DNA of 63,287 bases, the filler included, from Kipferlia bialata (Eukaryota): the NCBI GenBank assembly GCA_003568945.1. It is 5 parts of 5 records of this genome, joined end to end, with 100 filler letters (N's around TTAATTAATTAA, not from the genome) between each part and the next. Parts side by side here need not be neighbours in the genome. Positions count along the whole stretch, not along the records: positions 32,759 to 48,915 come from BDIP01000620.1; 4 more parts are not named here. One strand, written 5' to 3'. The translations under genes and the position numbers were made by a program. The first letter of the stretch is position 1, and each line of letters starts with the position of its first letter. Of the stretch, positions 25,566 through 49,015 are shown one piece after another. The notes under the pieces are model-generated. The model searched no databases. It saw nothing but the letters and a program-made list of their open reading frames with translations, and was not told where the DNA came from.

Positions 25566-28500
25566 TTACTCCTCCTCCTCCTCCTCCTCCTCCTCCTCTA
25601 TTGACCCGGTCTGACCAGGAACAGGGCAGGGCTTGACCTGGGATAAGGAGTTTACACAGAGGAGTTTACACAGAGGAGTAAGGGAAACTTATTATAGTGG
25701 ATAGAGAGAGTTACCTTCCAGATCCTGTCTGCATACTCCTTGACACTCCTGTCAGAGGAGAAGTGGGCCATGCCTCCTGGGGGTCAGCACAGGTCATCAT
25801 ACTATATAGGAGAAGAATACTGACACGGCAGTGCAGTATCATGGCATATGTGTTTGATATTCTGCATGTACCTGTGAGGTTGATGCTGTTCTCTGTCCAT
25901 GCCTTGGGGTTGGCGAAGGCACGGTCGGCCTGGGCCTGGGCCTGGGGGTAAGAGTGAAGTACAAACACAAACCAGACACTATAGCACAATTAGTACTTTG
26001 TGAATACCAAGGCATACCTTGATGTAGCTCTGGAAGTCGTGTGCCACCAGCCAGTAGTCTGTGCCGGACCTCATCTCGTCACAGATGGCACGGTAGGCAC
26101 CGGCACCAGTGATGCCTCTGGCCCTGCGATGAGACTAAATATATTAATGAGGATATATATACATATGAGAATGCCCTCAGGCCCTATGGACAAGGCACGT
26201 ATTGGTTATTGACAAAAACCCCATACCTCTCCTCCTTGCTGAGCAGTGCAACGATCTACAAATAGGGTATATATATATGTATATGTATGTATAATCATAG
26301 TATTACATACAGAGTCTGTGCATACCTCTCCTCCTTGCTGAGAAGTGCCCCACTCTCTATGAATGATATCACTCTGTCGAGGTCAGTCGGGATGGTCTCG
26401 GCCTCGCCCCTGGGAATCAGTATCTTAGATACATCACTACCGTACTTCCCTTGATATTGGACAGACACATGATTCTAGTACCAACCTAGCGTATGCCGCC
26501 CTGACGTCCTCTACCTCCTTGGCATTGGCTCCAAACATGAAGAGCTTCTCCTTGCCCACCTCCTATCGTGTAAGAAATGGGGCAATATCAAATATTTGTG
26601 TATTGCTGACAGTATCCTACCTCTGCGATCTCTATGTTGGCACCGTCGTATGTGCCGATGATGTTGGCTCCATTGAGGGCAAACTTCATGTTGCTGGTGC
26701 CAGAGGCCTGGGGTGAAAGTGAACATATATCCACAGAGACACACTAATACGTGTAATTGGTATACTCACACTTACACAAATAGATATGTGTGGTGAATTA
26801 CTGTTAACTTTACCTCCATTCCGGCTGTTGAGATGTGCTCAGAGATGTCGGCTGCAGGGATCAGGATCTCTGCCTTGGACACGTTGTAGTCAGCCACGAA
26901 GAACACAACCAGGCTGGGGTTAGAGAGGTACACTATATATAATAGTAGCTACACGATAGATGTAAGAGAGAGCGTAATACCCCTGACCTGTTCCTGGTGA
27001 CTGGGTCGTTGTTGATGAGCCTGGCTGCTGACACAATGAGCTGGATGATCTCCTTGGCCCTGGGAGTCAGCATGTCACACACAATGGAGATGATGCTATA
27101 CACTCTGTTGTATACCTGGTGTATGCAGGGGCGGCCTTGCCAGCAAAGATGATGACCCTGGGCACAACGTGGGGGATGGACTCTGTGCCTGGGAGTGAGA
27201 GTCAGCAGAGAAGTCGACAACTCCTCAAGTAGAGGGCTATACATACATGGACTATGCACTACTATATATATACCTGTCACTAGCTCGGCATAGTCCTTGA
27301 GCCTGAGGTACCGGAGCAGAACCTGTGTCAGACATATATATTTACATTCACAAACCGTAAATTGAATAGCCTATAGTGCGTGATTGTATGCTGCTCATAG
27401 CAGTGTACCTGGAGTATGTTCATGAGCTGCCTCTTGTACTCGTGTATCCTCTTGATGTGCACCACAAACATGGCATTGGGGTCGAGGGTGGGGGGGTTGG
27501 GGTCGTCCTGGCATTCAGCATCAAACAGACTCTAGTATCCCTAGAAAATGAATATATATCCACTGTGTGTGTGTGTGTGTGTGTATACTACAACTCATAC
27601 CTTGAGCTGGGTGGTCTTGAGGAACAGGATCAGTCTCTCCTTGGCCAGTCTCTTGGCCATCAGCCACTGCTGCTGCAACTTGCGAGAGGTGGCATGGTCC
27701 TTGAGGCGGCACAGCTGCTCGATGTCCTACACGGTGAGAGGTGGAGAGGATGTGAGTAGTACTAGATGAATATAGGGATGAAATATGGGAAAAGAGATTA
27801 CGAGTGGTAGACGTATACCCATATGTACCTTGGTCCAGTCCTCTGATCCAAGGGTGTCAGTGATGACATGGCTGGGGGTCAGACAAGGACACATCGTGTA
27901 GTATATGAACTATGGATGCAGGGGCCTCACCTGAGGTATGGGTTGCACTCCAGCAGCCACCTCCTGGGGGTCACTCCGTTGGTCACGTAGGTGAAGCGCT
28001 TGGGGAACATCTCGTAGAAGTCCCTGGGGGTGAGACACTGTGTAAATACAAACTACGCGATGAGTCAATTGCCAATACCTGAACAGCCTGTCCTGAATGA
28101 TCTCTCCGTGTAGCCTTGCCACGGCATTGACCGCATGGCTACCGACAATACCCAGGTGGGCCATCCTGACCTGGGCGTTAGGCGACATACATCAGGGTAA
28201 TCATAGTCATACCACACTGATGGACCAGATGACATGTCATGCACTATACACTCACCAGCTGTGTGTGGCCCTCTGCTATGATGGAGACACGCTCAACCCT
28301 GGGGGTGAGAAGAGAGTGAATACGCCTTGAAACGGCCACAGAGTATATGGTGAAGTAGCAACACTCTTACCTGCTTTCGTCCCCTGGGAACCTCTTTCTG
28401 ACACAGGAGAGGAAGGTGCAGTTGATGTCAAAGATGATCTGCATGATCCTGGGGTTAGAGGACATCCCATGATATCCACACTAACACATAGTGACTGTAT

Positions 28501-31500
28501 CATTGTATATATTTCTCTATACCTGGGCAGCAGCTTCTCCATGACTGGCACAGGCCATGTCTCAAGGGCCTCTGGCAGCACGGTGTGGTTGGTGTAGGCA
28601 AAGGTCTGGGGGGTCAGTCCACATAGATAATATAAGCGCAATACAATAATATGTACATACATCAGCCATACCTGCACACATACAGCCCATGCCTCACCCC
28701 AGGGCAGTCCCTCCTCATCTAGCAGGATACGCATCAGCTCTGGGGGTTAGAGGATGCCATGATGTGATCATACATATCTATTTCGTACATATGATATATA
28801 CATATGAGCGCGATTATGCTATCTCACCTGGAATGGCCACGGCTGGGTGTGTGTCGTTGATCTGGATGGCATTGTACTGACCAAACTCCAGGAGGGAGCG
28901 GCCACTCTTGCGGTACCTGGGGTGAGACCAATCATAATACATGTGTTGATGTGTAGCTAAATGATAATTAGTACTACACTCACCTCCTGACAATGTCCTG
29001 CAGAGATGCACTGGCAAAGAAGTACTGCTGCTTCAGGCGGAGCTCTCTGCCCTACAGAGTTAGAGAGGCAAGGATGAGATGCAAACACATATGATACATT
29101 CTGAGAGAGAGAGTATATGAATGAGAAGATACTGGTGGGTGTATGAGTGTGTATGCCTCTACCTGAGGGGTACTGTCATCTGGATAGAGCACACTGGTGA
29201 TGTTCTCGCACTCCTGCCTGAGGGCGATGGCAGCGGTGTAGTTGCCACTGGGGGTAAGATGGGTAGAAGAAGAGATACCTCAACAAAGGGAGAGGGAGAG
29301 AGATACTAACCGGTTGAATGACATGAGGTCGAAGTCATGACTCGGCTTGGACTGCCAGAGACGGAGGTTGAGGGTGGTGTTGGTCTTGTAGCCTGAGGTA
29401 AGGAGAGATACAGTCTTAGAGTCTATAGCGAGGGAGAGAGAGAAAGAGAGAGACACCTAACCTGGGATGGGCAGGTCATATGCCACGGCCAGCACCTCCA
29501 TGTCTGGCTCCCACACAAACTTGCCCTGATGATAAGGGGGCAGAGGGGGAGAGAGAGAGAGAGACTAGCAGTGAATACAAATATAGTTACATACCTTGTA
29601 TCCGTCCTCCAGCTCAGCTGGGGTGGCCTTCCTGACAAACCCGTACATGTTGACAGCATAAACAACGTCAAGGCGCTCAATCTCCCAGGGAAAGCCTGCG
29701 GTTAGGGAAAACACAATACACCAACACCATAGCTCATTACTAGCCATGGTATACATATATGCATATACATAGGGATACCTCTGCTGAGCCAGAAGTCTGG
29801 GAACTCGGACTGCTTCTCCTCGATGATGGACTGGGTGAACATGCCATAGTCTGGGGGATGAGTAACAGTTATACTATATTCACACCTATAATGTACTATG
29901 AGGAGACACTTATAGCATGTATACGTACTGTATCTGAGGCCGTATCCCCAGAGGGGCAGGTCCAGGGCAGCAGCACTGTCCAGGTAGCATGCGGCCAGTC
30001 TGCCAAGGCCTCCATTGCCAAGGGCAGCATCTTGCTCCTGGGGGTGAGGTATATACGTATATATATATATTTATATAGGTATGTGTGTGTATATACACCT
30101 ATTGGGTAAAGGACATGGTCGCATCCTGCTCCTGGGGGTAAGACACTTGAGTGAATACATGTATATACAACACTCATATTAGGGCACCATACCATTTAGG
30201 CATGAGGATAGTGGAGTAAAGATATACCACTGGTATATACCCACCTGGTTGTAGAGGTCCTCCAGCACAAAGCCAAGCTCCCTGAGGGACTCTCTGTAGA
30301 CACCTGGGGTGAGACAGTGTGTGAGGATAATTCAACAGCAGTATATGTACAGATGAGGATAGGTGATACCACTTGCCCCTACCCCACCTGATATGTTGAG
30401 GGATGTGAGTGCGTTGGCGAGTGTCCTGCCCAGCAGATACTCGATGGACAGGTAGTACACCCTCTTGGGGAACACTTCGTTGAAGTACCTGGGTGTCAGT
30501 TCATGTACAAACATCGTGTAATATTATTACGTGTATCGTCGTGTAGCATACGTACTGCTGTGTGTCGTTGAAGTACTCGAGGAGCCTGTCCCTGACACTG
30601 TATGCCGTGGCCATGTAGGCAGAGTGGTGGTCGATGGTGAATCTGGACCTGAGGTCAGAGGGAATAGAGAGAGAGAGGAACGATACACATTGGAATAGAA
30701 ACACTAACCTGGCGAGAGTGTACTCGATGTGTGTGACAATCTGCTTCTGGATGGCCTCGACTGTTCTGGGCTGGTACTCGGATAGGATCTCCCACAGCTT
30801 GGTGGTGTCATCGACAGAGCCCTGGGGGTTAAGAATGGAGGTAGGAGAACATAGATANNNNNNNNNNNNNNNNNNNNNNNNNNNNNNNNNNNNNNNTAGG
30901 AGAACATAGATATATGTATTATATAGACAATAATATGGTGTCATCGACAGATCCCTGGGGGTTATACGTCTCAGTGTTCCCCTCTCTATATATACAATGA
31001 TATACCTTGTCCTCTGCGGCTGCACTGAGCTGTGCCCTCACTCTGAACTCATCCAGCCAGTCCCTGGGGGTAAGGGTATATGCATATATACGTAGGGGGC
31101 AAGTGTAAAAATACTGACATATGGGTATACATTCAAGATACTCATCCAGCCAGTCCCTGGGAGTAAGAAGAGAGATATGTCAGACATATATGCATAGATA
31201 CTGACACTGACCATCGGTATTGATCTCCACACACATATGTATGAAACCCACCTGAACATGCCGTCGTTGTCTGCAGGTGCTGCACTGCCCTGGGCTAGGA
31301 GGTCTCGCATGGCCCTGCGGGGTGAGGTTGATATGTATACATACGTATAGTTACACTATCACGGGCGGTCACGCATGGCCCTGGGGGGGGGAGATTGATA
31401 TGTATATATATATATATGTATATTAACATATATAAATATATACGTATACGTATATACATCCGTATGTACAGATATGGATGTACAAATACACACCTAGCTG

Positions 31501-32537
31501 GCAGCAGTCTGAGCACCGGCCCCTTGTCACCCTCCATGCCAGGCAGGTTGTCAGTGGACCTGGGGGTAAGGGACAGGAGAGGGTATAAATATATATGTGT
31601 GTGGGTGTGGGTGTGGGTGTATGAATGGAGGTTGTCGATGGACCTGGCGGTGGGAGAGGTTGACAAGTAGATCCCGTAATAAGAGTATGTATCGTATATA
31701 TACACACGTTGTCGGTGGACCTGGGGGTAAAGGACAGGAAAGGAATAGGGGAGAGAGGGATGTGGAAGAGTATGACATTGACATCCCGCATCAGAAGAGT
31801 GAACATATACTACTTGGTGTACATACAGTCATAGGTGTATATATATATATTATACCTGCTTCTGACCAGAGCACTGAGCTCAGTCTTGGTCAGACCTGGG
31901 AACCCAGGTGAGAGTACACTGTCTGGGGTGGCTAAGCCAAGGGCATGGCCGGCAGGGGCTAGGGGTGAGATATGTATATATGGATACACATATATACAGA
32001 GAAATCGAGAATACATGCACACACCTTGCCCAGTCCTGTGCTTCCTCAGCACCCTCAGCTGCTCCTTCTGCACCGTGTGGTTCCCTAGGACAGGGGTGGG
32101 GGGACCACCGGGGGTGGCCTCGGCCATGACCTAGAGTTAGACGGAGACAAAATATGTAAACAGAGAGAGGTGAAGAACCGGAGGAGGGTCTCTAGCATAA
32201 CTCCACGTCAGAGAGAGAGGGAGAGCTGTGTAATCAAATCCACACTATACATACACACCCTAGCCACTGGGTCCCTTCTGCTTCTGAGCATGGCCAGAAG
32301 GGATACATCACTATACATGTATATATCTAAACATACTATATACTATAATATTCACACACCCTAGCCACTGGGTCTCTCCTACTTCTCAGCATGGCCAGGG
32401 GGTATATATCACTATACATGTATATATATGTAATTGTATGTATGTATATAATGTATGTAAGTACCCTAGCCACTGGGTCCCTCCTACTTCTGAGCATGGC
32501 CAGGGGAGAGGTGGAGCCAAAGTCAGGGGAGGCAGCC
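25566..32537 (-). CDS. Glycogen/alpha-glucan phosphorylase (GT35), many exons, long N-terminal extension, 5' partial
   Basis: [110 protein letters not shown]-lysine motif [14 protein letters not shown]; ends [14 protein letters not shown]...poly-E*. Confidence 0.96.
32259..32505 (-). repeat. Three copies of exon end [13 protein letters not shown] + GT donor
   Basis: Copies at ~32260, 32360 and 32465. Confidence 0.95.
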
Positions 32538-32658: not shown

Positions 32659-32758
32659 NNNNNNNNNNNNNNNNNNNNNNNNNNNNNNNNNNNNNNNNNN
32701 NNTTAATTAATTAANNNNNNNNNNNNNNNNNNNNNNNNNNNNNNNNNNNNNNNNNNNN
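32659..32758. other. Artificial scaffold-concatenation linker
   Basis: N44-TTAATTAATTAA-N44. Confidence 0.97.
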
Positions 32759-35700
32759 ACAGTGGGAGAGAGACAGACATCACAGATGTGGTGGTGCGGC
32801 ACCTGCTAGAGGCCTCTGGGGACAGAGAGAGTGACCTACTCAAGGACATACACAAGCTGCTCCCTAAGCGGTACCAGTCTAACAAGAACGGCCTCAAGGT
32901 GGTGTCAAGGTGCCAGATAGAGGCCACGCTGCGTGTGCTGCTAGCTGAGACACAGTCCATAGTGCAGTGCCTGCATGAGAGGGAGGGGGGTCTACAGGGG
33001 GTGCTAGAGGGGTGGCTGCATCAACAGCCCCCTGACACTGGCACAGCCTCCCGAGTGGCATTGAAGGCTGTGCTAGGGGGACTGGAGGAGTCTCTGCCCT
33101 ACGACAGAGTACTAGCCAACAGAGGGTACGGGGTGTGCCAGACACTCCTGGGCCAGCTGGACTCACTCATTGGTGTATACCAGGCCAAACTGATAGCTGG
33201 TGCCACGACTGGGCACGGCCTCTCTCTGCCTGAGTCTCTGGGGGTGTCGAGGAGTGTGATACTCAGGCAGGACCTACGTAGTCAGTACGGGTCTCAGTAC
33301 AGCGAGGACAAGTACGTGGCGACAGAGGGGGTGGCGGGACTGTACTCAGACTTCATGGAGCAGGTTAGTATGCCATATACATGTGTATTCGTGAGTCCCT
33401 CGTCCTCACTGTATATATATATATATATTCTCTACATTATTCTTATTGCGTCCCTCCAACCACATGTTCCCTCACCCCAGGCCACCACCGGTGACGATAC
33501 CCCTTCCCAGCCCCTGCTTGTCCTCCTTGCAGACATGGGCATGGGCAAGACATGGGCCGCCACGCACCTCACCCTGGCCACGGCCAAGGACCCCTCCCTA
33601 TGCACCATCCCCTTCTACCACTCCCTCCGCAAGCCAGTGGCTGACGGGGCCCTCGGGTACTTTGGGGCGTCCAACCCCGTCCAGGCCGGCACCCACTGCG
33701 CCATGCTGCATGCCAGGAGGGGGTGCCGCACCCTCCTTGTCCTGGATGGGTTTGACGAGATAGCGGTGGAGAGGGAGAGGGTGGACACGATAAACTGGGT
33801 GTGCAGCTTCCTGGAGGTGAGTTCATTCTCCATATTCTGTGTATGCCAGGTTTATGATTCTGTATGGAGTGGCCATGTGTTTACGATGACATTGTTCTTT
33901 AATATTTCCAGTCTGGCATCTAACCTCCTTATCCAGCTTACCCTGTACTCACCTCCAGTCTGCTAATGGCACTGCCCTGGCCGTCATCACGTGCAGGGGC
34001 AGTGTCTGGTACACCGAACAGTGTGTCGATGATAGTAAGGAGAGGCTGGTTGCCCTGACCTACCGTGCCACCGCTGAGTCTCTCTCTAGCGGTCACTGCT
34101 GCCCCCTTACAGACACTGAGGTGGGGGATGCTCTGTCCAGGTATGGCCTCCCTGCCGTACCCCCCTCCCCCCTCAGAGACATGTGCCAGAGACCATTCAT
34201 GCTGCGTATCGTCAGCACCCACTTGGCAGTGACCAACACCCTCCCCGACCCATCCGACCCTGAGGCCTTCCTGCCTGTCTTCATAGACCTCAAGGACACT
34301 TCCACCCACACCATTCTCTACCGCATGGGCGTCTCCAAGGGGGTGAGGAGGCACTGCCTGCTCCCGTTCCTCAAGCTCTTGAAGGGCGATGCCGGATGTG
34401 TACTCAGTGACTCTGACGATGCTGTCCTTACCCTGACCCAGCACACCCTGTGGCAGAGGCTGCAGTCCTCAGGTCTGATATTCTCAGAGATACTGCCCTT
34501 CGAGGCCAAGTATAGCATCAGCCCTGTCTACCAGTCTACAGTGAAGCACCTGATGGTGGTGGCAGGGCTCATGCCCCCACCCCCTGTACGACCCCCTCCC
34601 CCAGTACCAGTGGTTGACAAGGCTAAGCCCAATGCCTTTGCCATGCTCTCTGCAGCACTGGCGTCGGGGTCGATAAGAGCACCCTCCCCAGGAGACCAGG
34701 TATATGGTGGTTGGACAATGGTATAACTTCAGTATCACATCTGATGCCAGGCTGCCGTCGAGCACACAGAGAACCCCCCTGCTGTTGACCTGCCAGCACC
34801 CCAGGAGGAAGGGGAGGAGAGGGAGAGCGAGGGAGAGGGAGAGGCATCCGTCGGAGATGCAGATGCAGTGGGTTGGAGTCTTACTCGCAGCTTCTCTATG
34901 TGGTCGCCCTTTGGTACCAAGAAGCACACTGAGCCCGCAGAGGAGGACAACCCTCTTCTGCTGGGCACCCCTAGGGAGCAGGCCTGTGAGGCAGTGCGTG
35001 GGTGGCTGAGGGTGTCGGGGCAGCATGCGGGGCAGTTGGGCGTCATGCTCTCTGCCTGTCTGCCTAGGGTACCCACCGCTGCACACACACTTCAGGAGCA
35101 CCTCGCATATGTGCAGACTCTCAGCAATGTCGTGACTGAGGGCACAGCCGCTCTGGAGGCACTGTCCGAGGAGGCCCCTCTGCACGATGCCATCATAGGC
35201 TGTGTCCCCCCCTTCCCCATGGTCAGACACCTGGCAGACATAGGCACGTACCTAGCAGACAAGACCATACGTAGAGAGGCAGGACCAGTCCTGAGTGGCC
35301 TTGCATCTTGGTAAGTGCATTTTGTAGAAACAATTATTGCTAATGATTAGTGTTCCTAGAAGTTGAAAACACGTATAACGTTACACTACCCTTACTTAAA
35401 GGAAGACGGGGTCCGTCACCTTCCTCAAGGAGGGTCCTTGTGTTCTTGTGGACAGCATTGGAGCCTATCACTCCACTCTGCCAGCAGAGTGTGACGAGGT
35501 CCTGGGACTAGAGCGGGTAGGACAGTACCTCCGACTGGCGGAGAGCACTGACACGACTCCGGAAGAGTTGGATGGACGGGTGCGCCTCGTCAAGCTCTGT
35601 GAGAGCCTTGGTGTATCCTCTCGTGTCTGGATGACCAAGATCCTCATGCAGCCTCGCAGGAGAGTGGTTGCAGAGATGTGTATGGCGGTACGTTTCCCAC

Positions 35701-38700
35701 AGTAAGGTCCCCTATACACAAGGCACCAAATACCCACTCATAATCAGGTCAGAGCCCCCAACGCTGCTGGTATCAAGACAACCAAGAACAGGGACGTGTT
35801 TCTCCTCACCGACCTCCTAGTGGTGAGACGGGACCACCAGTACATGAACAGCGACAAGAGCGTCACTCACCGCATTCCGCTGGAGGATATAGAGGTAAGC
35901 GGCGTGTTTGCTTCTCCGAGTCTACAACTGCAAGTACAGACAATACTCTTCAGTGGTTCTTCCAGTCTTCCTGTTCTAGTCTCACTTCAGGTGACATATG
36001 AGGGACCCGTCGGTGCTCCTACCAGAGTGACTCTGCAGGTGAACATGTCAAGTCCCTGTGTATGACTGAATAGATACCAGCCCCCAACAGTGCTATCTCC
36101 ATTGACTTCAGGCCAACAATGTGCGGCTCGACTCACTGTTTGAGGACGATGCAGCTGCAATAGGTCTCATGATACAACAGACACAGGTGGGTAGGCGAGT
36201 ATATAGAGAGAGTGTGTTAGGTTTTGTCAAGTGCAACTGCTAGAGATACATAGGGTTCCCTTCATAGTACTATTACTCACATAGGAAACAGCCAAGAACC
36301 ATTCTGAGGATCCTCTTCTCCGAACAGCACTTGCAGAAGCCATTGATGGAGAGGTGAGTGTGATCAAATATGGTTATATACTCTCCTCTCTTGTATAGTG
36401 GTCCAACCCCCAGGCCCCCGACTTCACAGCCCTCTGTGTCCAAATCAGTGGCTTGATAGACTCCGAGAGGTTAGTATATCCATGTAACGCAATGCAATAG
36501 GAGCGTAACTATACTAACTATATATATACTAACACCAGCTATCTTGCAGCATACGAGAGCATGAATGCGCCCTTAGAGATTTACAGGAGGCTCTATGACA
36601 GGCTCGATACCCTATATGGCTTCGGTGAGTGCATATAGAGTCTATATGATATAGACTATCCTGCCACTCAAGTATAGATGAATGTGTATTCCCATTCTCG
36701 TGCACCTCTCTCTAGTTTACTACACTTACACGTTCTCCTCTCACCCCAGACCTAGGTGCTGTCATGCAGTACATGCGGGCCCTCCACACAGGCCAGCACC
36801 CTGAGCCCCCCTCCCCCCTACACCCAACAGAGCATTCCCTGCAGCTGACAGGGCCCAACCTCAGGCTGCTGTCGGTGCTGGAGCCCCTGGGTCCCCTCAG
36901 AGCCAGGTTATTGCTGCTACACACTATAACAGACACACATGTACCTTAGTTTAAACTACAACCCGACCTGACTCTAGGCTTAAGACAGCCATGATTGAGG
37001 ACACCCCCCTGAAGTGGGTACATCTGGCAATGGAGGGACAGGTTGAGGAGCTACAGTACGTGTCTGGTGATGTCTGACAACTCACTGCATAGAGACATGT
37101 ATACCATACGTGTATGTTAGTGTTTCCCACCTCAGGTCCATAGTGTCAGTCTTCAAGGCCCAGATGGGTGAGGCAGGGGTATATGCAGAGGGGGTGGAAG
37201 AGAGAGAGGGAGAGATGAAGTCCACCTGGCTAGACGGTGCCTGGGACACTCTGCACACAGACACGTATAAGAAGGGTATGGGTATCAATTATACCGTCCA
37301 ATACCAGTATAGTAGTAGGTTGTCGATATCTCAAGTGGAACATGCCCTTACTCTAGCCCTGAAGCTTATGGCGGGTCTGACTGGCGTCCAGGATCGCCTA
37401 GATATGTGTGCTAACATATCAGACACCCTGCAGGTGTGTTGTGTATCAGTCTTTAACTATCAAAGGCAGTGAAGTGTATTTACAGTTCTCTTGTCTCTAA
37501 CGCAGTTCATTGCTCTGCACGTGGCCCCAGTCTTTGCCCCGCTGCCCTTGCTCCACGTGTGTGTGTCCCTCAACCACAACCTGCTGGATGTGGTGAGTAT
37601 ATGTATATATATAGATATATAGATATATATATAAATTCATATATATATATATATATATATATATGGAGACATTTAGAAAGACAATGCTCTTTACCATCTC
37701 TAGGAATACCAGACTCCCATGTGCTTATCTTAGGTGGTGAGGCAGACGGTTGAGGCCTTGATCGTAGATACCACGTCTACCGACACGGCAGACGTCGTGG
37801 CTATGTTCACATTCGCCAGATTCTATGAGACCTCGCTATTCCAGCTCGGTACGAGTAGCATGTTCTTTCGCATTCTTGCAGTATGCGCCCAAATGACTAG
37901 CCAGTGTTGATGAACATCGAGAGTCTGACATAACTATTGTCAGTACTATGGTGTTTCAACGTCTAACATCACTAGGAGCCAACTGGCTTGTGCCTGTTAT
38001 GCCAGTCCATGCAGGTGGACCCTACCGTCGGATAGACCCTACAGAGGTCCCATACCCACAGGTACATAGCTGAACTCTATATAGTATATGCATGGGTATC
38101 TACCTCCCAACACTCAGGATGAGCTACCTCCTGGAGTGGCAACAAGGGCACGGTTCTCTCTTCTAGGTACACAGCCACTAGCAGTGTGGTGATGGTGCCA
38201 TCACTGATGGTGTCCCACCAATGTCTACTACTATTCATGTTGTTGGCTACGCCACCCGTCTAACTGTAACCTCAGACGCCCTCACTCCCCTCTGCAACGT
38301 GTTCCAGAGTCGTTTCGTCAGGCTCATAGGCACCCGATGGATCAAGACATACCACACCAAGTACAGCAGGTATACAGTGCCATGTAATTGTTGAACATAG
38401 TGTAAATCATGCATCTGTTTAGCCACTGGGACTGTCAATATCAATGAGCAGCCAGAGTCACATTATAGTGTCAGTCACCATCTCACCTTTCAGGATTCTA
38501 GGCCACATCGCGTCTCTGGTTCATACACAGGACGTGTCCAGGGTTAGTCGGTGACTCACTATATGTATATTCCGGGGACCAAGGCTCCACTTATCGCAGT
38601 TCCACCTCATTGTCAATGACAATGTCAATAGTATCAGTATAAGTATATGTATAAGTATTGACTCAATGCCAGGTGGACGGTGTCGTGGTAGTGGCCAGTG

Positions 38701-41461
38701 GGCACCCTCACACACGCATCCCCACTCTATTCCTGACAGCTATGCTAACAGAGATGACGGGAGCGGTGGAACGTGCAGGGGTAGAGGTATGATGCAACAT
38801 GGAGATACTAGGGGTGACTATTGGTTGCATTCAACACATGCTCTCACCCCCAGCTGATGGGTCCTCTGGGCCGTGCCATTGTGGAGTCCCTGGGGGGTGT
38901 CTGTGACACCTATTCAACAGCAGTGGCAGGTCGGTTATCAACCACTGTGCACAACCACCCAGTGTCTTCATTCTGCCCACTCACATCCAGGTCTGGCTGT
39001 AGATATCCCCAGTGACTTCCTGGGCCTTCCCCTTGTGCCAAGCGATGCAGAGGGTACAGACCACATGAGGTACAGGGATACAGTGTAGATGTAGATAGTG
39101 CGGTACATTTGGTGTCCCTGTCACCTTTATCACACTAACATCAGTCCCAGCACCTCAGTGGCCGGGATGACCGTCCCCTTTGACAGAAAGGTGACTGCAT
39201 GTCTCACTCTGTATTGCGTGACTCACTTACGTCAGGCCCTAGCTGTACTGTCTAACGACATCACCACTCTACACGATGACCTGGAGAAGGTGGCTGATGC
39301 ATACACCGCTGTGACACAAAGACACGGCGCTGACATGATATGTGTAACTGAGGTAGTTGGTATGCGTATCTTGTTCAGGCAGTCACAGATGTATATATAT
39401 ATACATTAATATATATCACCACTAGGCACAGGACGGTCTGGATAAGGTGCAGGGTCGCCTCTTAGAGATCCGCAAGTCTCTTGTCAGGCAATTGGCAAGG
39501 TAATATTTCGCTATTTCTTGACACATGGTATGACAAGTACCACCCATATATATATATATATTCCGTCCCTCACTGCCAGGTGCATGTTCAACACCCCTGG
39601 GGTGGTCGAGTTCAGCCATCACATCCTGTGCCCTGAGGTGGGGAAGGCCTCAACACCAGTCGCAGTTGTTGAATAGCTGTCTGTGATTCAGTACTTACCA
39701 TTATGATAATGAATTCATATGTATATACAGAATTATTTACTTATCCTTACTCCAGTGGTGCCAGGACGGGACTGCACAGTACACAGGTATATTAATGAGT
39801 AGCCACGACGTATCTAGCCACCCCTAATTGACAATTGGCAATTGTCATGATGGTAGAGTGTAATAACCATTACTCATGATGATCACTCACTCATACTACT
39901 TCCACCTTCCTACCACTCCATACCATTCCTAACACCCTAGTCCCCGCCCTCATTGCCCTGGAGAAGGTCCTGATGCGCACCGAATGCAGTGTGTACCCCC
40001 ACTCCAAGGTACTCAAAATGATTGTTGCAGCTGTCAGATGATTCCTTATGGATACGACATACCTAGTGAATCCAAGCCAAATGCTTTCAGTTGCGTACTT
40101 TCCAGTCACATTGCATATAGAGCGACTCTGTGCTGTATGTCTTTATGGATGAGAGATGATTTCTCACCAATAGGAGCTGTTAGCGTATGCTATTCCCACT
40201 CGGCTGATATCGGCTTACATTTCCGGTTGTCTGCTCAGGTAATACTTATATACACTGAGTGAGAGTGGTTTGGTTCAAGTGTTGCTTCTGTCTGACCCTA
40301 GGCTCAGTGGGCGGGACTCGGATATGAGACTCAACACCAGGAGGAGGGACACATCAGTCGACAGCCACACCCTTCAGGTACTGCACATATTATAGTCCCT
40401 ATCCTGAAGTATATACAACAGTTGAAACCGGCAAGTTGCATTGTTGTCTGGCAGTAGTATGTGATAGTAACCTCCTGTTGTGTCATAATCGTGTACGCTG
40501 TCTCTTTTAGATATCAATCTCCTCGTATCATAACAACTATCACTATTGTTACATGGATTAGTATTTGCGTGTTCCTAATCCTTCAGAGTCCGCACGTCCG
40601 GGACCGTGTCCAAAAGGATCTCCACACAATAGGTTGTCTTTCGATCCTGCAACAGTATCTGCTGCTAACATGGGTTTAGATACAGGCCATTTCCTATAGA
40701 TATCATAGTTAATACTATGCCCTCACACAGGTGCCTTCTTAGAGTCTCAGGTGGCCACGATGCTGCCTACCAGCTATCGCCTGAGGTTTGTCACCAGATT
40801 CACTGCACAGATCCAGGTTGGGCTCGACCTGATCCGTCTGGCAGGCATGGACTGTCCCGGCACACTGCTCAAGGTGATGGCGGGAGATGTATGCATATCC
40901 AATGGAGGGGTGTGTGTCCTACTTCTACTAACATGCAGGATATATGCCAGGGGTTCCTAGGTGGGCCTCACAGTCTGACAGAGGAGAGCGCTCGTCTGCT
41001 TCTGTCACTCCGGTATGTTGGTCTATATATGTGGAGCGAGTCTTCAAGGGTTGTATTCTCTGCAATCTCTGTTCCTTCCTTCTCACATCCCAGGGGGCCA
41101 GCTGGTGTGACTGGCACTGACATCACACACGACACACTCATAGGTAACTCGTTGCACAATGGTCTGTCGGGTCGTCGTCTTCTCTGTCTGTCTATATCTA
41201 TGTTTATAACCATCCATGTGTCTCATACCCCAGACGAGGTCAGGTCGGTGCTGAGTCCAGCTAAGGTGGCTAGACAGCTGGACGGGGGGTCAAGGTGAGT
41301 GCATGATACATACGTTCTGGATTCCACCCCGTTGTGGAACTGGGGTTTGTCCTTCTCTTTTGTTGTATAACCCCAGGCTCTCCCATGAAGAGAAGGTGTT
41401 CCTAGCTGTGTCCCAGTACAGTGATATGAGGCAGAGGAGGAGGGCCCTAGGGATATTCTAG
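32759..41461 (+). CDS. Large STAND/NACHT-like P-loop NTPase with winged helix, Pro-rich linker, degenerate DH-PH module and long C-terminal region; 5' partial
   Basis: Walker A LLVLLADMGMGKT (~33515-33552), Walker B LLVLDGFDEI (~33733-33762), sensor-1 AVITCR, HD1 MCQRPFML, WH LQSSGLI; later LMQPRRRVVAE and RDVFLLTDLLVV resemble the PH domain that follows Dbl domains. The downstream exons I checked (39.4-40.4 kb and terminal exon) are phase-consistent with TAG at 41459-41461. Confidence 0.72.
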
Positions 41462-42036
41462 GGAGCAAGTCGAGTGAGTCACTCGAAGTGACACAGTCAC
41501 TGACATCAGCTGCTGTCAGTGACCCTTGCGTCAGTTTGGTTGTTGTGCTACCTCTTAGAGTTGGGCATGCTTGCCGTAAGGCAGGCCACGTTTGGATGAT
41601 CGTGGTCCTCTATCAAGTGGGGGATCCTATTTTAATAGATATGTAGTGGTATGCGGCACCAGTAGCTGCCTGTATTTCGAAGGGAGAGATTAGGATTACG
41701 TATAGTTATGTGATAGGGCTAGTCAAAAACACAACTGTCTCTCTTAGCCTAAGAGAGTCTCTTAGGCATCTGGTATGCTAGTATATTCAAGCAGTCTGAC
41801 ACTCAGACTCAGGCTGCGAGTCTCAGCTGGGGGATGTATAGAGGATGCTACTCTCTCCAGAACATGGTCTGTGAGTCACAGCCTGTGACGCTGACCATAT
41901 ACAGCATTGGCAGTGTATATTCCAGGCACATTGTATTCATTTAGCGCTGCCAATACGTAGTGTACTCTGATGTCAAAGGACCAACACATATCCGGATACG
42001 ATACCACCACCAACTGTAGCACTAAGATAGGATCTA

Positions 42037-45000
42037 TCATGCCTGCATATATAAATACAATATCATACCTGGGCCTTTAGCACCATCTCCCCCCACTTCA
42101 CAGCCCTACTGACTGACAGTGTTCTCATGGAGAGACCTGGCTCCTAGATGTAAGTCAGAGATCGTATCCATTCAGTATAGGTATGTAGGTCCCTATTTAG
42201 AGACTAAATTGTACTAGTTAGTAGGAAGCGTCCATTACACTGCAATTTCTGATGCCTGAGTGTAGATGGTGAAAGACTAGATATAGGTATTGGTTCCTCA
42301 TACCTGCAGGGTAAGTGTGGCAGTCACGTCATCCTGCTCTTCCAGTGTAACCTGACGTCAACGTCACAAAGAAACCCTTTGAATGGGACTAGCTACACTA
42401 TTGTAATCAGATGAAACGCTATATTGATCTCCAACATATGCCTACCTCTACACTTTCCAGTGGCAGCTCTCTGATGAGAGTCATACTCTCAGCCGAGTCT
42501 ATTGGCCCCATCACCAACAGTATATCATTGAGAAGGTACACGGTGTGCTCGTTGGGTGGTGAGATCTGGAGGATACTGCACGCCACCTGGGTTGAGATAT
42601 ATGACTCCAGAGAAGTCTGAATAGAAAAGGTCAGATAGTGACGAGTATACAGTGTATCGGTGTACATACCTCTAGCTCCATCTTGCCTATCAGGCATCTG
42701 TGTGGCTGGAGTAGGGACTGCCGCATATCTACCATGTTGGCCCCGCTAAGGTCGTCGCACAGCTGCAGCAGGGAGTCCTTCTGGTCAGCCTGGCGCTTCG
42801 TCTCATTGGCACCGTCTGCGATGGCTGATAGCCTATCGACAGCAAGTCTCATACCCTCCAGCTCTGGATGCCCTGTTGGTGTGTGCTTCATGTACTCCTC
42901 GGCCAGCATCTTATAGCGCATGGTGCGTTGCACTGGTTCTATGATGAGTGACAGCATTGTTCTGCGGTGAGGAGGAATGTGCGGGGAATCTCTTCGGGGG
43001 AAGAGAAACAGGGCAATTGATCCATAGACTCTGCAGTGATGATCGTGTGAAAGTGACTACTATACACAGCTTAGCATATATACCTTGGTGGCTCCACAGA
43101 CTCAGCGAGGTCCAAGCTCCTGGACTCTTCACGTGACAATGCCTTATGAACCGCAGGCTCTGTTATCAGGGTCCGCAGTGCCTCGTATTGACCTATGTAC
43201 GGCTTAAAGTGACAGATCTGGGGGGCTGTCTGTATGAACACATCCCCGAGGGTGGCTCCTGAGACAACCATATTCTCAAGCGCCGTGATGATGTTGGAGC
43301 TGACTTCTCTCACAAGTGTGACGTTACGGGTATGTCTACTGAGGGACTCACTCTGTACGCCCTTGAGGGACTGGGACGCACCGTGTAGCCTAGTGAGGAG
43401 CTCAGCCATGCGACTGTTGAAGGTGATCTCAGTCTGCAGTACCTCCTGTACCACCTTCAGTCTTTGGTGTGACACACTGTCAGTGCTATCGAAGAGAACT
43501 TGGGCCAGAGACACGTGTACAGGAGAGAGGGTGAAGAGAGCAGCTTGGGTGCAGGAGTGGTCAAGGACTCCAGACTTCACCTCAGCCTGCCACTGCGAGT
43601 GCCCAGCTGGGGGTTGGAGACTACCTCACTACTTTACAATTTGCTCAAAGAAGGTACCCTGATATGCATTCAACTGACCCAGTGGTACATATATTACATG
43701 TCACATATGTATTGACTCTCATACCTGTGGACCTAGTGATCCCGTCCTGTCTCCACTGAGTGTGAGACCGACATGGAAAGGTGTTCAATTAACAATACAG
43801 TGATTAGAAAACAAGTGTGAAGAGGTATGTTAGTGGCGATCATGCATATATGTCAAACACGATCACAGTACGTTGCCAAGTGAATACCTCAACTCCAAGA
43901 ACACTCTCAGACAGAAGGCCTACCGTTGACAGACACCTGGGTATTGTTAAACAGTTGATGGTTGGTTATGTATGCCTTCCAGGGGAGTATAAGTAGTGTT
44001 TAAGGTATATTGACTATGACACTGTAGTGGCTGTATATGCATATGCCAAACAGAAGTAGGCATGGATGGGTATTACCTCGACATCACGCTGAGTACAATC
44101 TCCCTCCTAGTGTCCAGTAGGCAAGTGACGATGGAGTCGAGGAAGGGGAGGCGCTAGTGGTTAGGAGAGTCAGGATCAGACAGTGTGTTCAGGACTGACT
44201 CCGTATGGGTGTGAGCTCTCAGAGAATAGTCATTTCGGTGTTCCTACCTCTGCAACTATTGGCATGTCAGTAATGTCTGCCTCAAGTCCAAGGGTGAATG
44301 TATCTGCTACCATGTTCAGACCCACAATCATGGATGTGATGTCATTGGAGAGCAAACACAGGGTCTGGTGGTGAGTGTAAGGATTATAGTCAGGACCGAG
44401 TGAATAGGGGATACTATTCGGGCCCTGAATTTCAGAGGATACTCTTAACGGACTCTGAATGCAGTAGTTACAATGTTACCTCCACCATCGATAAGACCAC
44501 TGGTTCCTCCTCTGTGCTTTGCAGACTAGAGTTAGTAGGTATAGAGAGTGAATGATATATGGAAACATCTTAAGTGAAGATAACTGCTCAACAATGGTTG
44601 ACAGTGTACTCTGTATACCTGATGCGGTACTGGTTGCTGACTGCTGCTGGTTCTGTACTATCAAAAGAACCAGTGTCCTCTGTGTGTAAGGATAAGAGCA
44701 ATGTATAATAGTATATTGTGCAAGTGTATGAAGGAACGAATACTCTGTGGTAGCTATTTTGAAGTAGTTTATGAGTAAACTGTATCCTCAAAAGAGGTGT
44801 ACTCACCAGTCATTCCACACAATGACACCCTCACAGCCCTACCGAGGTGCCCCCTGAGCTGGCCTTAGACTGATCACGGAACACATCACAACAGATAAGA
44901 GGCATGCATGGATATAGTGAAGAGACAGTGACACGGTGCGACTCTTTAGAGAGATACCTCTGGTGTTTGGGACAATGAGTGACATGCAGAGTGAGAGGTA

Positions 45001-48000
45001 CTGTTGACCACCGTACGTATCTCAGCCACTGCGTTAGAAACTGAGGTGTCTTGATACATCCTTAAGATGTTGCGCCTGAAGAGATCACGCAAAGGTGTAT
45101 AATAGGTCACCAGATTTGTACTGTGTCAATCTAATACATACGCCGTGGACATGTATATACAAATGAGTAGACAGAGAGAGTGCTGGACATACACCACAGA
45201 ACCCTACCTGTGGCCTGGGTGTTCTTGTACAGAGTATCCCATGCTTCCTCCAGCCAGGTGGACTTCATCTCTCCCTCTCTCCCTTCCACTCCCTCTGCAT
45301 ATACCCCTGTCTCACCCATCTGGGCCTTGAAGACTGACACTATGGACCTGAGGTGGGTGATGGTGACATACACATATGGTAAACATGTCTCTATGCAGAG
45401 ACTATCTAGACACCATCAGACACGTACTGTAGCTCCTCAATCTGTCCCTCCATTGCCAGATCTACCCACTTCAGGGGGGTGTCCTCAATCATCGCTGTTT
45501 TCAGCCTAGAGTCAGGTCGGGTTGTTGTCTATCCTGAGGTACATATGTGTCTGTTAGAGTGTGTTACAACAATTACCTGGCTCTGAGGGGACCCAGGGGC
45601 TCCAGCACCGACAGCAGCCTTAGGTTGGGCCCTGTCAGCTGCAGTACATGCACTGATGCGTGTAGGGGGGAGGGGGGCTCAGGGTGCTGGCCTGTGTGGA
45701 GGGCCCGCATATACTCCAGGACAGCACCTAGGTCTGGGGTGAGAGGAGAACGTGTATGTGTAGTCAGGAAGAGAGAGCTGGGGATGGTAGAAACACACAT
45801 TCGTAGTAATAGAGAGACACTAGAATTTACACGCACTCACCGACGCCATACAGGGTATCGACCCTGTCATAGAGCCTTCTGTATATCTCTAGGGGCTCAT
45901 ACAGGCTCTCGAACGCTGCAAGATAGCTGGTATTGGCATGAGACAGGAGGATACTGTTCTCTAACTATATCCATTAGAGATACATCCTACCTCCTTGAAT
46001 CTATGAATGCTCCAATTTGTGAATACAGAGCCGTCCAATTGGGAGTCTGAGGTTAGGGTCCGTACATTGGCGGACTGGGGTTCAACAAAGGTTCCAATGT
46101 GGGATCTAAAACCCACCTCTACGTCCATTACATCATCAAGTGCCATGACCAGAACAGGGTCCTCGCCTGTGTTCTCTAGTGCTTCCTTCAGTTTAGAGGG
46201 AGACTGTGAAAGAAAACAACTACCAAGCAAATGTTTAATGTCTTGACCACAACCACCACAGCGCTATACCACTTATACAGCTGTATTACACGTTGCATAT
46301 CCCTAGTGATACCTGCGCCCTCTGTACAAGGAGACCAATGTGGGAGGCACCAGGGTCAGGGTCATGCAGGGACCGCATGGTGACAGCCTTGGACTTGGCC
46401 TGATATCAGCAGTATTCTCTTGGGAGTCTCAAGCATCTAGACGTATAACTCTGCAGTCGAGAAAGCGAAGAAGCCCCACTGGGACTCCCCACACAGCTAT
46501 GTGCCCAATTTCCTACCTGTATAGTGACTGTGGTGGGTGCTCTGACCGGACCCGTGTAGGTCACCTGGAGTAACTACAGTAAAGAGATGTGTCTTTGTTA
46601 GATTTCAACACGTTGTCTCACCTGAACATCGTCGAGGCCAATCTCATGTAGGACACTGAGGTCTCTGTTGGTCATGTGGTCTCTGGTTATCACAATGCGA
46701 TCTGTCAGCAGATACACATCCCGGGGCTTGGTGGTTGTGAGACCTGCCCCATTAGGTGCTGTCACCTGTCATGAGCACAGAAGAGTAGGACTCAGAGTAG
46801 CATGGATACATAAGCACATGGTATGTTACGCATCGGCCTGGCAAAGTAGCAGACACACCTCCAGCACCATAGAGGCCACCACGCCCTGTCTGGACCGACC
46901 CAGCTTGGTCTTCTGGCCCCCACTCATCATGCCGAGACGCTGCACTAGCGCCATCAGCCGTACCTTTTCGTCGAGCCCCTCTGACGTGATGTCAGTCCTG
47001 TCAGCCAGTGTCAGGTACAGCTCAGCACGCTGCAGGTCTTTGCACTGCTGACTCTCCGTGGGAAGGGAATCGCGGTAAGAACCCAGGTTGCGTAAAATGG
47101 CATTTTGACTCCTCTTGATGTTGTGGGTGAGCTTCTTCCTCCTGTGAATGAGCATGGATGGTATCATGGAGATTGCTTGGAAATCCAAGTAGAGACTCTG
47201 GCCACACTGAATGTCACAGACTATTTACAAAGCTTTACTTACCAGGCCTTAAGCCCTGCTAGTGACTCTCCAGCCTGTCGACAGACTGTCTTCTCCCCTA
47301 GGTATGTGCCTATGTCTGCCAGATGTCTGACCATGGGGAAGGGGGGGACACAGCCTATGATGGCATCTGATAGGGGGGTGGTCTCGGGGTGTGTCCTCAG
47401 AGACTGGGCACACACATCGGTGACCTGGCGAAGAGAACTCACATATGATATGTGCTGTTGCAGTGTAGTAGCTGCCGTAGGGACTGTCTGTAGACACCCA
47501 GAGAGCATGTGCCCGAGCTGATGAGTGGCACCCTCGCATACACCCACCCAGCACACGAGTGCCTCCAGTGCACGGTGTCTGGCATCGGAGGGGGTCACAG
47601 GTGGGGTGGTCTCCTCAACACGGAGAGACCCCCTAGAGAGAGACAGCGATCCAAGCCAGGACAATCGGCGTGGCCTGGTCTCACCCAACCTTCTGTTGTG
47701 TGGGCAGTCACCCTCATCAGAACAGGGGACGTCCTACGAGTTATTAGACATTAGAGTGTAGTGTCCAAAACGTTGTACCATTACATCAAACAGGTAACAT
47801 GGTGTATTAGTGTGGTGCTAATACCTCGCTAGCTCTGACAGGCTCTGTGGAACTGACGCTCTTGCCGTTGGAGGGCCACGACTTGTGGCAAGACCTCTGG
47901 GAGTTGTGCTGTGGAGTTGGAGCTGTCGTAGACACCTGTGTATTAGAAGCGTCAGCGCAGGTCGGAACTATGCAATGTATTATATTGCCAAGAAATCAAT

Positions 48001-48915
48001 TCAATCGAAGGTCGTTCAAACTATAGTGTATGATAAATATTGATAGTGCTCATATATATACATTGTTGGAACACAGCAGCAGTGGTAATACATACACATG
48101 ACCGTGCCATACCTCTGTGTCTGACAGGTCCCTTGGCACTTGGGGGTGAGGGACTGTTGGGGGTCTAGGGGGTGTGTGGCCGATACCGTGCTTGTCAATC
48201 AAGTGCTGCACGGTGGCTTGGAACACAGGTGCTATACTGTATCTAATTCCATCTGGCCCGGCTGTTACATCCAGTAGGCCAGAGGACTCAAACCTGGGCC
48301 ACAGAGAGAACGACGTCAGCCTCTGCACCTTGGTCTCATTGGACGAGAGTGTCTCCCTCGCATTCCCTCCCAACAGCTTCAGGAATGGGATAAGACAGTA
48401 CCTTCTGACTTGCTTCGTGACCCCCATGTGGTAGAGGACTGTGTGTGTGGATGTCTCTTTGGGGTCGATGAAGAGAGACAGCAGCGCATCTGGGTCTGAG
48501 GGGTCGGAGAGGTCCAGCTGGCCCAGCAGTGTCTGGCACACCCCGTACCCCCTGTTGGCTAGTACTCTGTCGTAGGGAAGGGACCCCTCCAGTCCCCCTA
48601 GCACTGACCCCAGTGCCACTCGGGAGGCTGTACCAGTCTGAGGGTGCTGTTGATGCAGCCACCCCTCCAGCACCCCCAGCAGACCCCCCTCCCTCTCATG
48701 CAGGCACTGCACTATGGACTGTGTCTCAGCCAACAGTACACGCAGCGTGGTCTCTATTTGGCACCTTGACACCTCCTTGAGGCCGTTCCTGTTGGACTGG
48801 TACTGCCTAGGGAGCAGCGTGCGTATGTCCCTGAGTAGGTCACTCTCTCTGTCCCCAGAGGCCCCTAGCAGGTGCCGCACAACCAGATCTGTGACGTCTC
48901 TCTCTCTCCCACTGC
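42037..48915 (-). CDS. Paralog of the 32759 gene lacking the NTPase core, ending in a canonical RhoGEF DH-PH module; 5' partial
   Basis: 48050-48880 ORF nearly identical to the N-terminus of the 32788 ORF; 47239-47688 and 45131-45836 match 34868-35314 and 36716-37270. DH motifs QRLKVVQEVLQTEITF (CR1) and SLIIEPVQRTMRYKMLAEEYMKHTPTGHPE (CR3); PH LLQPHRCLIGK, HTVYLLNDILLV, AVKWGEMVLKA. The DH-PH part could be a separate gene. Confidence 0.72.
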
Positions 48916-49015
48916 NNNNNNNNNNNNNNNNNNNNNNNNNNNNNNNNNNNNNNNNNNNNTTAATTAATTAANNNNNNNNNNNNNNNNNNNNNNNNNNNNN
49001 NNNNNNNNNNNNNNN
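48916..49015. other. Artificial scaffold-concatenation linker
   Basis: N44-TTAATTAATTAA-N44. Confidence 0.97.

What the first reader, a model, noticed from the sequence alone, without database searches (positions are those of the whole stretch)
32759..36420. NLR-like STAND/NACHT NTPase fused to a Dbl-type DH-PH-like module in a protist
The order is N-terminal helical domain, NBD (ADMGMGKT; LLVLDGFDE; VITCR), HD1 (CQRPFML), winged helix, poly-Pro linker, a helical DH-sized region and a PH-like region. STAND proteins are established switch/immune receptors, normally ending in LRR, WD40, TPR or ankyrin repeats. I see no such repeats here, and coupling to a RhoGEF-like module is not an architecture I recognise. 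Hypothesis: a receptor linking sensing to Rho/actin signalling, or an integrated decoy for effectors that target Rho signalling.
Basis: partly seen in the sequence, partly recalled or inferred. Interest (0 to 1): 0.72.

Follow-up and report, generated by a model that had tools for sequence, protein, structure and literature searches.

The report
NLR-like switch carrying RhoGEF and Sec6
In the free-living anaerobic protist Kipferlia bialata, one predicted gene joins an immune-type NACHT switch to a likely inactive RhoGEF (DH-PH) module and a shortened exocyst Sec6-like rod, a layout repeated in its paralogues, and these captured parts likely act as bait for microbes that tamper with the cell's membrane traffic.

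Summary
The locus is K. bialata KIPB_003295 (1,748 aa, 5' end lost at a scaffold gap, exons to 41461). Order: helical N-terminus, NACHT-type NTPase, DH-PH, then about 770 aa of a Sec6-like CATCHR rod.

DH-PH homology rests on a paralogue-built profile (77 bits; shuffles at most 2), four shared intron positions, language-model neighbours and fold matches. The catalytic motifs are gone, so it is likely a pseudo-GEF. The rod is 31% identical to the organism's stand-alone Sec6-like protein but lacks its first ~140 residues, which probably mediate exocyst assembly.

The fusion recurs in two independent loci: KIPB_000736 (NACHT-DH-PH-Sec6) and KIPB_004599 (NACHT-DH-PH), both above Pfam cut-offs. Related NACHTs end in MORN, Kelch or LRR. 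All real hits were K. bialata.

Best reading (0.45): an NLR-like sensor with integrated decoys, convergent with plant NLR-Exo70 fusions. Rival: a STAND-regulated Rho/exocytosis scaffold. Function is untested. RNA shows splicing, but the key junctions were not displayed, and one RNA joint would truncate the rod. No description was found in the searchable literature.

The parts
32763..41461 (+). Gene 1 (KIPB_003295, P0001, 1,748 aa, 5'-partial): helical N-terminus - NACHT - HD1/WHD-like - linker - pseudo-DH - PH - Sec6-like rod
   Evidence: RNA-type contigs give cover in every bin from 32759 to 41921
32763..33363 (+). Exon 1: family-specific helical N-terminal region and pre-NBD segment; about 65 further residues are probably lost in the gap
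   Evidence: aligns from residue 67 of the complete paralogue P0008; shared with paralogues
33529..33552 (+). Walker A, ADMGMGKT (Ala at the first Gly position, as in 4 of 7 paralogues)
33733..33759 (+). Walker B, LLVLDGFDE
33983..33997 (+). Sensor-1-like VITCR (label recalled)
34130..34567 (+). HD1- and winged-helix-like region (labels inferred from position; not folded here)
   Evidence: conserved in paralogues
34574..34966 (+). Pro-rich and acidic linker containing the 51-nt intron 34700-34750
   Evidence: low pLDDT in the exon-4 model
34967..35561 (+). Degenerate DH domain (aa 633-800), catalytic motifs absent
35649..36293 (+). PH domain (aa ~830-935)
36426..41404 (+). Sec6-like CATCHR rod (aa ~960-1730) lacking the first ~140 residues of the stand-alone protein
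37357..37433 (+). 77-nt annotated exon skipped in one RNA contig; skipping shifts the frame and would stop translation near aa 1163
39191..39235 (+). In-frame 45-nt GT-AG intron missed by the public gene model; a 14-residue gap lies nearby in the alignment to P0007
42066..48913 (-). Gene 2 (KIPB_003296, P0002), tail-to-tail paralogue: same N-terminus, NBD/HD1 deleted at 48512/48511, pseudo-DH-PH, partial Sec6-like pieces, then a second DH-PH with the motifs kept
   Evidence: an independent DNA contig spans the deletion point (record 8)
42066..43454 (-). Motif-retaining DH-PH of gene 2 (RhoGEF E 3.6e-17); its 4 introns match those of gene 1's pseudo-DH-PH

Best explanation
The predicted protein joins a NACHT-type NTPase to a DH-PH unit without the RhoGEF catalytic motifs and to an N-terminally shortened Sec6-like rod, and it likely works as an NLR-like sensor in which these captured host modules are bait. 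Shown: the domain order, the loss of GEF motifs, the truncation relative to the stand-alone Sec6-like protein, and recurrence in paralogues. Inferred by analogy with STAND receptors and plant integrated-domain NLRs: the PH domain and rod would hold the protein at Rho/exocytic or phagocytic membranes. Binding or modification of the pseudo-DH or rod by a microbial effector, or a disturbed Rho state, would release autoinhibition. ADP/ATP exchange would then oligomerise the NACHT, and the helical N-terminus would carry the output. The trigger and the output are unknown.
For: The modules sit in the usual sensor position, C-terminal to the NACHT core, where four paralogues carry MORN (2), Kelch or LRR-like ends. 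The DH has lost CR1 Thr/Ser-Glu, the CR3 Q-R motif and helix-6 Asn-Glu; such residues are needed for exchange (PMC5727386 and PMC13327543, passages). It still shows dN<dS against gene 2: pseudo-DH 0.48/0.93, PH 0.44/2.1, Sec6-like part 0.06/0.15. A stand-alone Sec6-like gene exists (KIPB_004451), and the integrated copy starts near its residue 140. Exocyst subunits assemble through N-terminal CorEx helices (PMC12626893, passages), so the copy is probably free of the complex. Gene 1 keeps Walker B DGFDE and TCR, whereas the paralogues with better DH motifs have DGLQE and TST. Mosaic divergence between the neighbours (dS 0.15 against 0.9-2.1) points to recombination. Precedent: barley RGH2-Exo70 (bioRxiv 10.1101/239541, passages).
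Against: No ligand, pathogen or immune phenotype is known for this organism in what I read. P0001 is below the Pfam NACHT cut-off and has Ala at the first Walker A Gly. Paralogues keep most DH motifs, so the ancestral fusion may have been an active GEF. One RNA contig skips a 77-nt exon and would cut the rod short. The linker-DH and PH-Sec6 splice joints were not among the 15 of 36 joints displayed. The neighbour is tail-to-tail and lacks its NBD, so it is not a classic helper. The dN/dS values are pairwise against a possibly decaying copy.
Confidence: 0.45

Rival explanations
1. Output rather than bait. The family is a STAND-controlled Rho/exocytosis scaffold in which nucleotide-driven opening exposes DH-PH and the tether rod to steer actin and secretion, for example at the feeding site. 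Gene 1 would be a non-catalytic Rho-binding member.
For: KIPB_004599, KIPB_000736 and gene 2's second DH pass the Pfam RhoGEF cut-off (49.3, 54.5 and 63.6 bits against 27.6) and keep CR1 [ST]E and Q-R-x-x-R-Y; 2 of 3 keep Asn-Glu. RhoGEF and exocyst act in one pathway (recalled; the exocyst's link to GTPase signalling is in the PMC6784791 abstract).
Against: Gene 1 itself lacks the motifs. The three motif-retaining DHs have Glu before the CR3 proline, where Lys is usual (position recalled; a CR3 Lys is named as important). Those NACHTs have DGLQE. No separate sensor domain would remain.
Confidence: 0.27
2. Address label only: the PH and CATCHR rod merely dock a STAND at a membrane compartment, where it senses lipid or organelle disturbance without bait binding.
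For: PH and Sec6-like parts are conserved. MORN-ended paralogues are also plausible membrane binders (function recalled).
Against: It does not explain why a whole DH is kept, nor a ~770-aa rod in two diverged paralogues.
Confidence: 0.13
3. Gene-model merging, or neutral shuffling of decaying duplicates, with no single functional protein.
For: The models are AUGUSTUS predictions (PMC5874029 section 7). The key junction joints were not displayed. There is an exon-skipping, frameshifting RNA joint. Gene 2 is deleted and mosaic.
Against: The same order occurs in three loci at about 30% identity, and in KIPB_004599 the DH follows the NACHT core with almost no linker. The connecting introns are 51 and 60 nt, in frame, GT-AG. 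RNA contigs lie on both sides of the 34700 intron, and record 12 stops at the donor with 45 further letters. dN<dS throughout. The three DH-bearing NACHTs group at 100/98.
Confidence: 0.15

Closest known systems
Plant NLRs with integrated domains, especially grass RGH2-Exo70F1 (bioRxiv 10.1101/239541)
   Same: A STAND NTPase fused C-terminally to a partial copy of an exocyst subunit whose stand-alone donor persists; decoy or localisation role proposed
   Different: NACHT-type rather than NB-ARC; no LRR; Sec6-like rather than Exo70; an extra pseudo-DH-PH; no head-to-head helper; a free-living unicellular metamonad
Fungal and animal NACHT NLRs (PMC4986451)
   Same: Central NACHT, variable N-terminus, exchangeable C-terminal modules within one family
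   Different: The C-terminus is not an ANK/WD/TPR/LRR repeat; the term RhoGEF does not occur in that paper's main text
Dbl-family RhoGEFs and pseudo-GEFs such as Bcr-Abl DH-PH (PMC5727386)
   Same: Tandem DH-PH fold; loss of catalytic residues as in pseudo-GEFs
   Different: Fused behind a NACHT and ahead of a CATCHR rod
Exocyst Sec6/EXOC3 and other CATCHR rods (COG4, Munc13 MUN, Tip20)
   Same: Helical-rod fold (Sec6p 2FJI Z 12.4, rmsd 4.0, 242 aligned; COG4 Z 13.7, rmsd 4.9, 225 aligned); 31% identity to the organism's Sec6-like protein
   Different: Lacks ~140 N-terminal residues; part of a multidomain STAND
NLR/pyrin guarding of Rho GTPases in mammals (PMC8084149, search listing and start of abstract only)
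   Same: Concept of monitoring Rho tampering
   Different: There the monitoring is indirect (recalled); here a Rho-pathway module is in the same chain

Membership tests
NACHT/STAND NTPase | Walker A GxxxxGK[ST] | tested here: met
   ADMGMGKT, with Ala at the first position; Gly in 3 of 7 paralogues
NACHT/STAND NTPase | Walker B hhhhDGhDE and sensor-1 Arg (motifs recalled) | tested here: met
   LLVLDGFDE, VITCR
NACHT/STAND NTPase | Pfam PF05729 above the gathering cut-off | tested here: inconclusive
   P0001 17.6-20.2 bits, below 26.7; 3 of 7 paralogues pass (26.8, 32.8, 36.4)
NACHT/STAND NTPase | HD1 and winged-helix domain after the NBD | tested here: inconclusive
   region conserved among paralogues but not folded
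NACHT/STAND NTPase | ATP binding and oligomerisation | not testable with these tools
   needs biochemistry
Canonical NLR | C-terminal superstructure-forming repeats | tested here: not met
   no repeat family in Pfam at E<=1; the C-terminus is DH-PH plus CATCHR
Canonical NLR | Recognised N-terminal effector domain | tested here: inconclusive
   helical family-specific region with no Pfam hit; 5' part missing
Dbl RhoGEF | Tandem DH-PH fold | tested here: met
   shared introns
Dbl RhoGEF | CR1 Glu, CR3 motif, helix-6 Asn-Glu | tested here: not met
   criteria
Dbl RhoGEF | Nucleotide exchange on Rho | not testable with these tools
   needs an assay
Sec6/EXOC3 | CATCHR helical-rod fold | tested here: met
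   Atlas neighbours all CATCHR; structural matches from a low-confidence model
Sec6/EXOC3 | Sec6 rather than another CATCHR subunit | tested here: inconclusive
   indirect: 31% to P0007, which hits PF06046 at E 1.3e-6, 27.7 bits, below 29.7; P0001 and P0008 have no direct PF06046 hit; COG4 scored above Sec6p
Sec6/EXOC3 | N-terminal CorEx assembly helices | tested here: not met
   match to stand-alone P0009 starts at residue ~138-141; assigning that stretch to CorEx is inference
Integrated-decoy NLR | Stand-alone donor gene retained | tested here: met
   KIPB_004451
Integrated-decoy NLR | Linked head-to-head helper NLR | tested here: inconclusive
   downstream neighbour is tail-to-tail and lacks the NBD; the upstream side is a scaffold gap
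Integrated-decoy NLR | Effector binding triggers defence | not testable with these tools
   no effector known

The most novel reading that the evidence does not exclude
A free-living metamonad has independently evolved integrated-decoy NLRs. A NACHT family swaps C-terminal modules and has captured a RhoGEF unit and the exocyst subunit Sec6 as baits, with an apparent division between NTPase-intact/GEF-dead and GEF-like/NTPase-altered members. This converges on plant NLR-Exo70 fusions in a single-celled bacterivore.
Probability: 0.35. Interest if true: 0.85.

Novelty: new variant of a known kind. Interest (0 to 1): 0.64.

Why it matters
Integrated-domain NLRs are known mainly from plants, where the captured domain reveals what pathogens attack. 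A NACHT-DH-PH-Sec6 family in a bacteria-eating metamonad would extend that logic to unicellular eukaryotes. It would name Rho signalling and exocytosis as the contested machinery. If the rival is right, it is instead a STAND switch wired directly to a RhoGEF and a vesicle tether, a coupling I did not find described. The paralogues give natural live/dead pairs for testing either view.

Tried and rejected
No whole genome was held, so no genome-wide count was possible; family size is a lower bound (7 NACHT proteins seen).

A single-exon AlphaFold model (aa 561-746, pLDDT 63) gave no Foldseek match at E<=0.001. Sequence searches of the PDB with P0001, alignments A1 and A4 and P0007 found nothing relevant, and A2 found mostly MORN proteins and no NACHT protein.

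A word-based search with aa 975-1748 among shorter proteins found 0 of 7,998 candidates. The P0010 search found only itself among 7,990 and even missed P0008, so it says little about absence elsewhere. Three metagenome loci are treated as spurious; the one inspected lies antisense to a bacterial gene. PADLOC gave 0 hits for 4 proteins and NCBIfam only far-below-cut-off hits.

The missing 5' exon was not found in the window. RNA cover is absent over most of gene 2; I do not use this as evidence of silence. A closer RNA look at the junctions was not obtained, and the loci of the paralogues were not seen at DNA level. Alignment A3 was misaligned and discarded. No complex was predicted. Three look-ups of earlier findings returned nothing.
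Full report
Identity and extent. A search with the NBD-containing frame returned 6 proteins among 7,995 candidates, all named Kipferlia bialata by their source. The best is this locus, KIPB_003295 (P0001, 1,748 aa, partial). Its peptide maps to 37 exon runs from 32761 to 41458 on the + strand. I rebuilt the first 16 exons by hand: 15 of 15 introns are GT-AG, 51-142 nt, with no stop, and the product equals P0001. The gene starts at a scaffold gap. It aligns from residue 67 of a complete paralogue, so about 65 residues are probably missing.

NTPase. Walker A (ADMGMGKT), Walker B (LLVLDGFDE) and VITCR are at aa 218, 286 and 322. Pfam NACHT is the top hit but is below cut-off (20.2 bits for the exon frame, 17.6 for the whole protein; cut-off 26.7). 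Three of seven paralogues pass it, and all seven align through NBD and the following helical region. HD1 and WHD labels are inferred from position. Four paralogues end in MORN (2), Kelch (1) or a weak LRR (1).

DH-PH. (a) Gene 2 in the window has a clear RhoGEF domain (E 3.6e-17; P-Rex1 is the top PDB hit), and P0001 769-932 matches it at 28% (pairwise E 3e-11). (b) A profile of three motif-retaining K. bialata DH-PH units scores P0001 768-933 at 76.7 bits; the best of 200 shuffles scored 2.0. The DH N-half alone is weak: 17 of 500 shuffles scored as high for gene 1, and 1 of 500 for gene 2's degenerate copy. (c) All 4 introns of gene 2's second DH-PH (phases 2,0,0,0) fall at matching positions, within one alignment column, in gene 1. 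(d) All 10 Atlas rows shown for aa 625-945 are RhoGEF clusters, top score 0.90. (e) An AlphaFold model of aa 633-1748 from a 4-row alignment that includes a motif-retaining paralogue has mean pLDDT 45, about 55-70 over DH-PH. It shows a helical bundle followed by a seven-strand PH, and all 34 Foldseek rows shown are DH-PH GEFs (best E 1.6e-6; TM-scores about 0.3, high rmsd). Catalysis looks lost: aa 633-670 hold only E636 and E640 and no Thr/Ser-Glu, P-x-Q-R-x-x-R-Y is absent, and helix-6 Asn-Glu reads Asp-Thr. CR1 Glu and CR3 Lys (PMC5727386, passages) and Thr plus Asn-Glu (PMC13327543, passage) are named as catalytic. A pseudo-GEF is therefore inferred, not shown.

For aa 975-1748 the 10 Atlas rows shown are CATCHR or related tethering subunits; a Sec6 cluster ranks second (0.91) and shares most features (169). 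A full HMMER search of aa 633-1748 against 1.84 billion representatives gave 7 hits, all K. bialata. P0007 and P0009 are two pieces of stand-alone KIPB_004451. P0007 is 31% identical to P0001 1202-1730 and hits Pfam Sec6 at E 1.3e-6, 27.7 bits, just under the 29.7 cut-off; P0009 has only weak hits to other CATCHR N-termini. The wide structural search ranks COG4 (Z 13.7, rmsd 4.9, 225 aligned) and Sec6p (Z 12.4, rmsd 4.0, 242 aligned) first, with Munc13, Tip20, Sec10 and Sec15 further down among unrelated helical bundles. That part of the model has low confidence, and such Z values are common for helical proteins. So CATCHR is well supported and Sec6 is probable. The integrated copy begins at about residue 140 of P0009. 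Exocyst subunits assemble through N-terminal CorEx helices (PMC12626893, passages), so the copy is probably not built into the complex.

Recurrence. KIPB_000736 (1,521 aa) has NACHT 32.8 and RhoGEF 54.5 bits, a PH and the same rod; KIPB_004599 (887 aa) has NACHT 36.4, RhoGEF 49.3 and PH. In an unrooted tree of 7 NACHT cores these two and P0001 are split from the MORN/LRR/Kelch members at 100/98. They keep CR1 [ST]E and Q-R-x-x-R-Y but have DGLQE and TST in the NTPase, the mirror image of gene 1. They also have Glu before the CR3 proline, so their activity is not assured. I saw these two only as predicted proteins.

RNA. Run X2 behaves as RNA. Of 36 joints, 15 were displayed; 10 belong to X2 and all are GT-AG. 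By my comparison, 8 match annotated introns, 1 is an unannotated in-frame 45-nt intron, and 1 skips the 77-nt exon 37357-37433. That skip would shift the frame and stop translation near aa 1163 if later splice sites are unchanged; this counts against a full-length rod being the only product. The skipped exon lies in a stretch that aligns with P0008 and P0011, so the inclusion form is probably the conserved one. The linker-DH and PH-Sec6 joints were not displayed. Contigs lie on both sides of 34700-34750, and record 12 stops at 34695 with 45 unlaid letters, which fits splicing but does not show it. DNA contigs of X1, possibly the source sample, run unbroken over 32964-35215 and 35200-36756.

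Neighbour. Gene 2 is a tail-to-tail copy that lacks NBD/HD1 (P0001 135-407); a DNA contig spans the deletion point. Divergence between the copies is mosaic: dS about 0.15 in the N-terminus and the start of the rod, 0.9-2.1 in WHD, DH and PH; dN<dS in all 5 regions. This suggests recent exchange between paralogues. The estimates are simple pairwise ones.

Mechanism. I commit to an NLR-like sensor with integrated bait (0.45), because both captured modules have lost what their ordinary job needs (GEF motifs, assembly helices) while staying conserved, and because they occupy the exchangeable position of the family. The closest precedent is RGH2-Exo70F1 of grasses, where decoy or localisation roles were proposed (bioRxiv 10.1101/239541, passages). 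Rivals are a STAND-regulated Rho/exocytosis scaffold (0.27), a mere membrane address (0.13) and a merged or decaying model (0.15). Every functional step is inferred.

Novelty. Kipferlia + NACHT gave 2 papers; I read passages of one (PMC7539657), with nothing on this architecture. Kipferlia + exocyst gave 0. NACHT + RhoGEF gave 24, of which 20 were listed, none about a fusion by title (listing only). NACHT + Dbl homology + STAND gave 1 unrelated paper. Integrated domain + NLR + Sec6 gave 17, 15 listed; passages of 2 were read, and one 'Sec6' was Sec66. The genome paper's main text has no NACHT, Rho or exocyst (PMC5874029, passages and section 7). PMC6784791, PMC7145615 and PMC4986451 were seen as passages. 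No supplements were read; domain tables there, or subscription papers, could list this combination, and automatic databases already label KIPB_004599 with both Pfam families. Verdict: a real, apparently undescribed variant of STAND proteins, seen so far in one species, with untested function.

Noticed in passing
window 42066-48913 (-): Gene 2 model ends in a second, motif-retaining DH-PH after Sec6-like fragments; it may be a chimera of several family members or two merged genes.
   Followed up: partly
window 32760-33162 vs 48914-48512, and 36531-37257 vs 45934-45226: Blocks of 91% and 85% DNA identity (the second includes introns) between otherwise ~50%-identical paralogues; both contig ends fall in the same duplicated exon.
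   Followed up: partly
P0003, P0005, P0006, P0008, P0010 N-termini: A shared small-residue hydrophobic stretch (V[P]-x-A-x-x-x-x-T/A-x-G pattern) precedes the helical region; it could be a membrane-inserting output segment.
   Followed up: no
window ~28000-31000 (-): Glycogen/starch phosphorylase exons (PF00343, E 4e-21 and 8e-19) left of the gap.
   Followed up: no
window 32253-32532 and 31544-31743: Three copies of a 74-nt unit (spacing 101 and 105) and two of a 39-nt unit, resembling tandemly duplicated small exon-intron units of the minus-strand gene.
   Followed up: no
window 13631-14032 (+) and 15418-15837 (-): Pyruvate kinase C-terminal domain (E 5e-14) and a weak aldose 1-epimerase hit.
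   Followed up: no
window 5902-6042 (-): Weak tblastn match to the charged stretch of P0003 (E 0.009), probably low complexity.
   Followed up: no
window 32703-32714, 48960-48971 and two further gap pairs: Paired 44-N gaps enclose a 12-nt spacer (TTAATTAATTAA where read); these look like artificial joins, so flanking genes need not be true neighbours.
   Followed up: no
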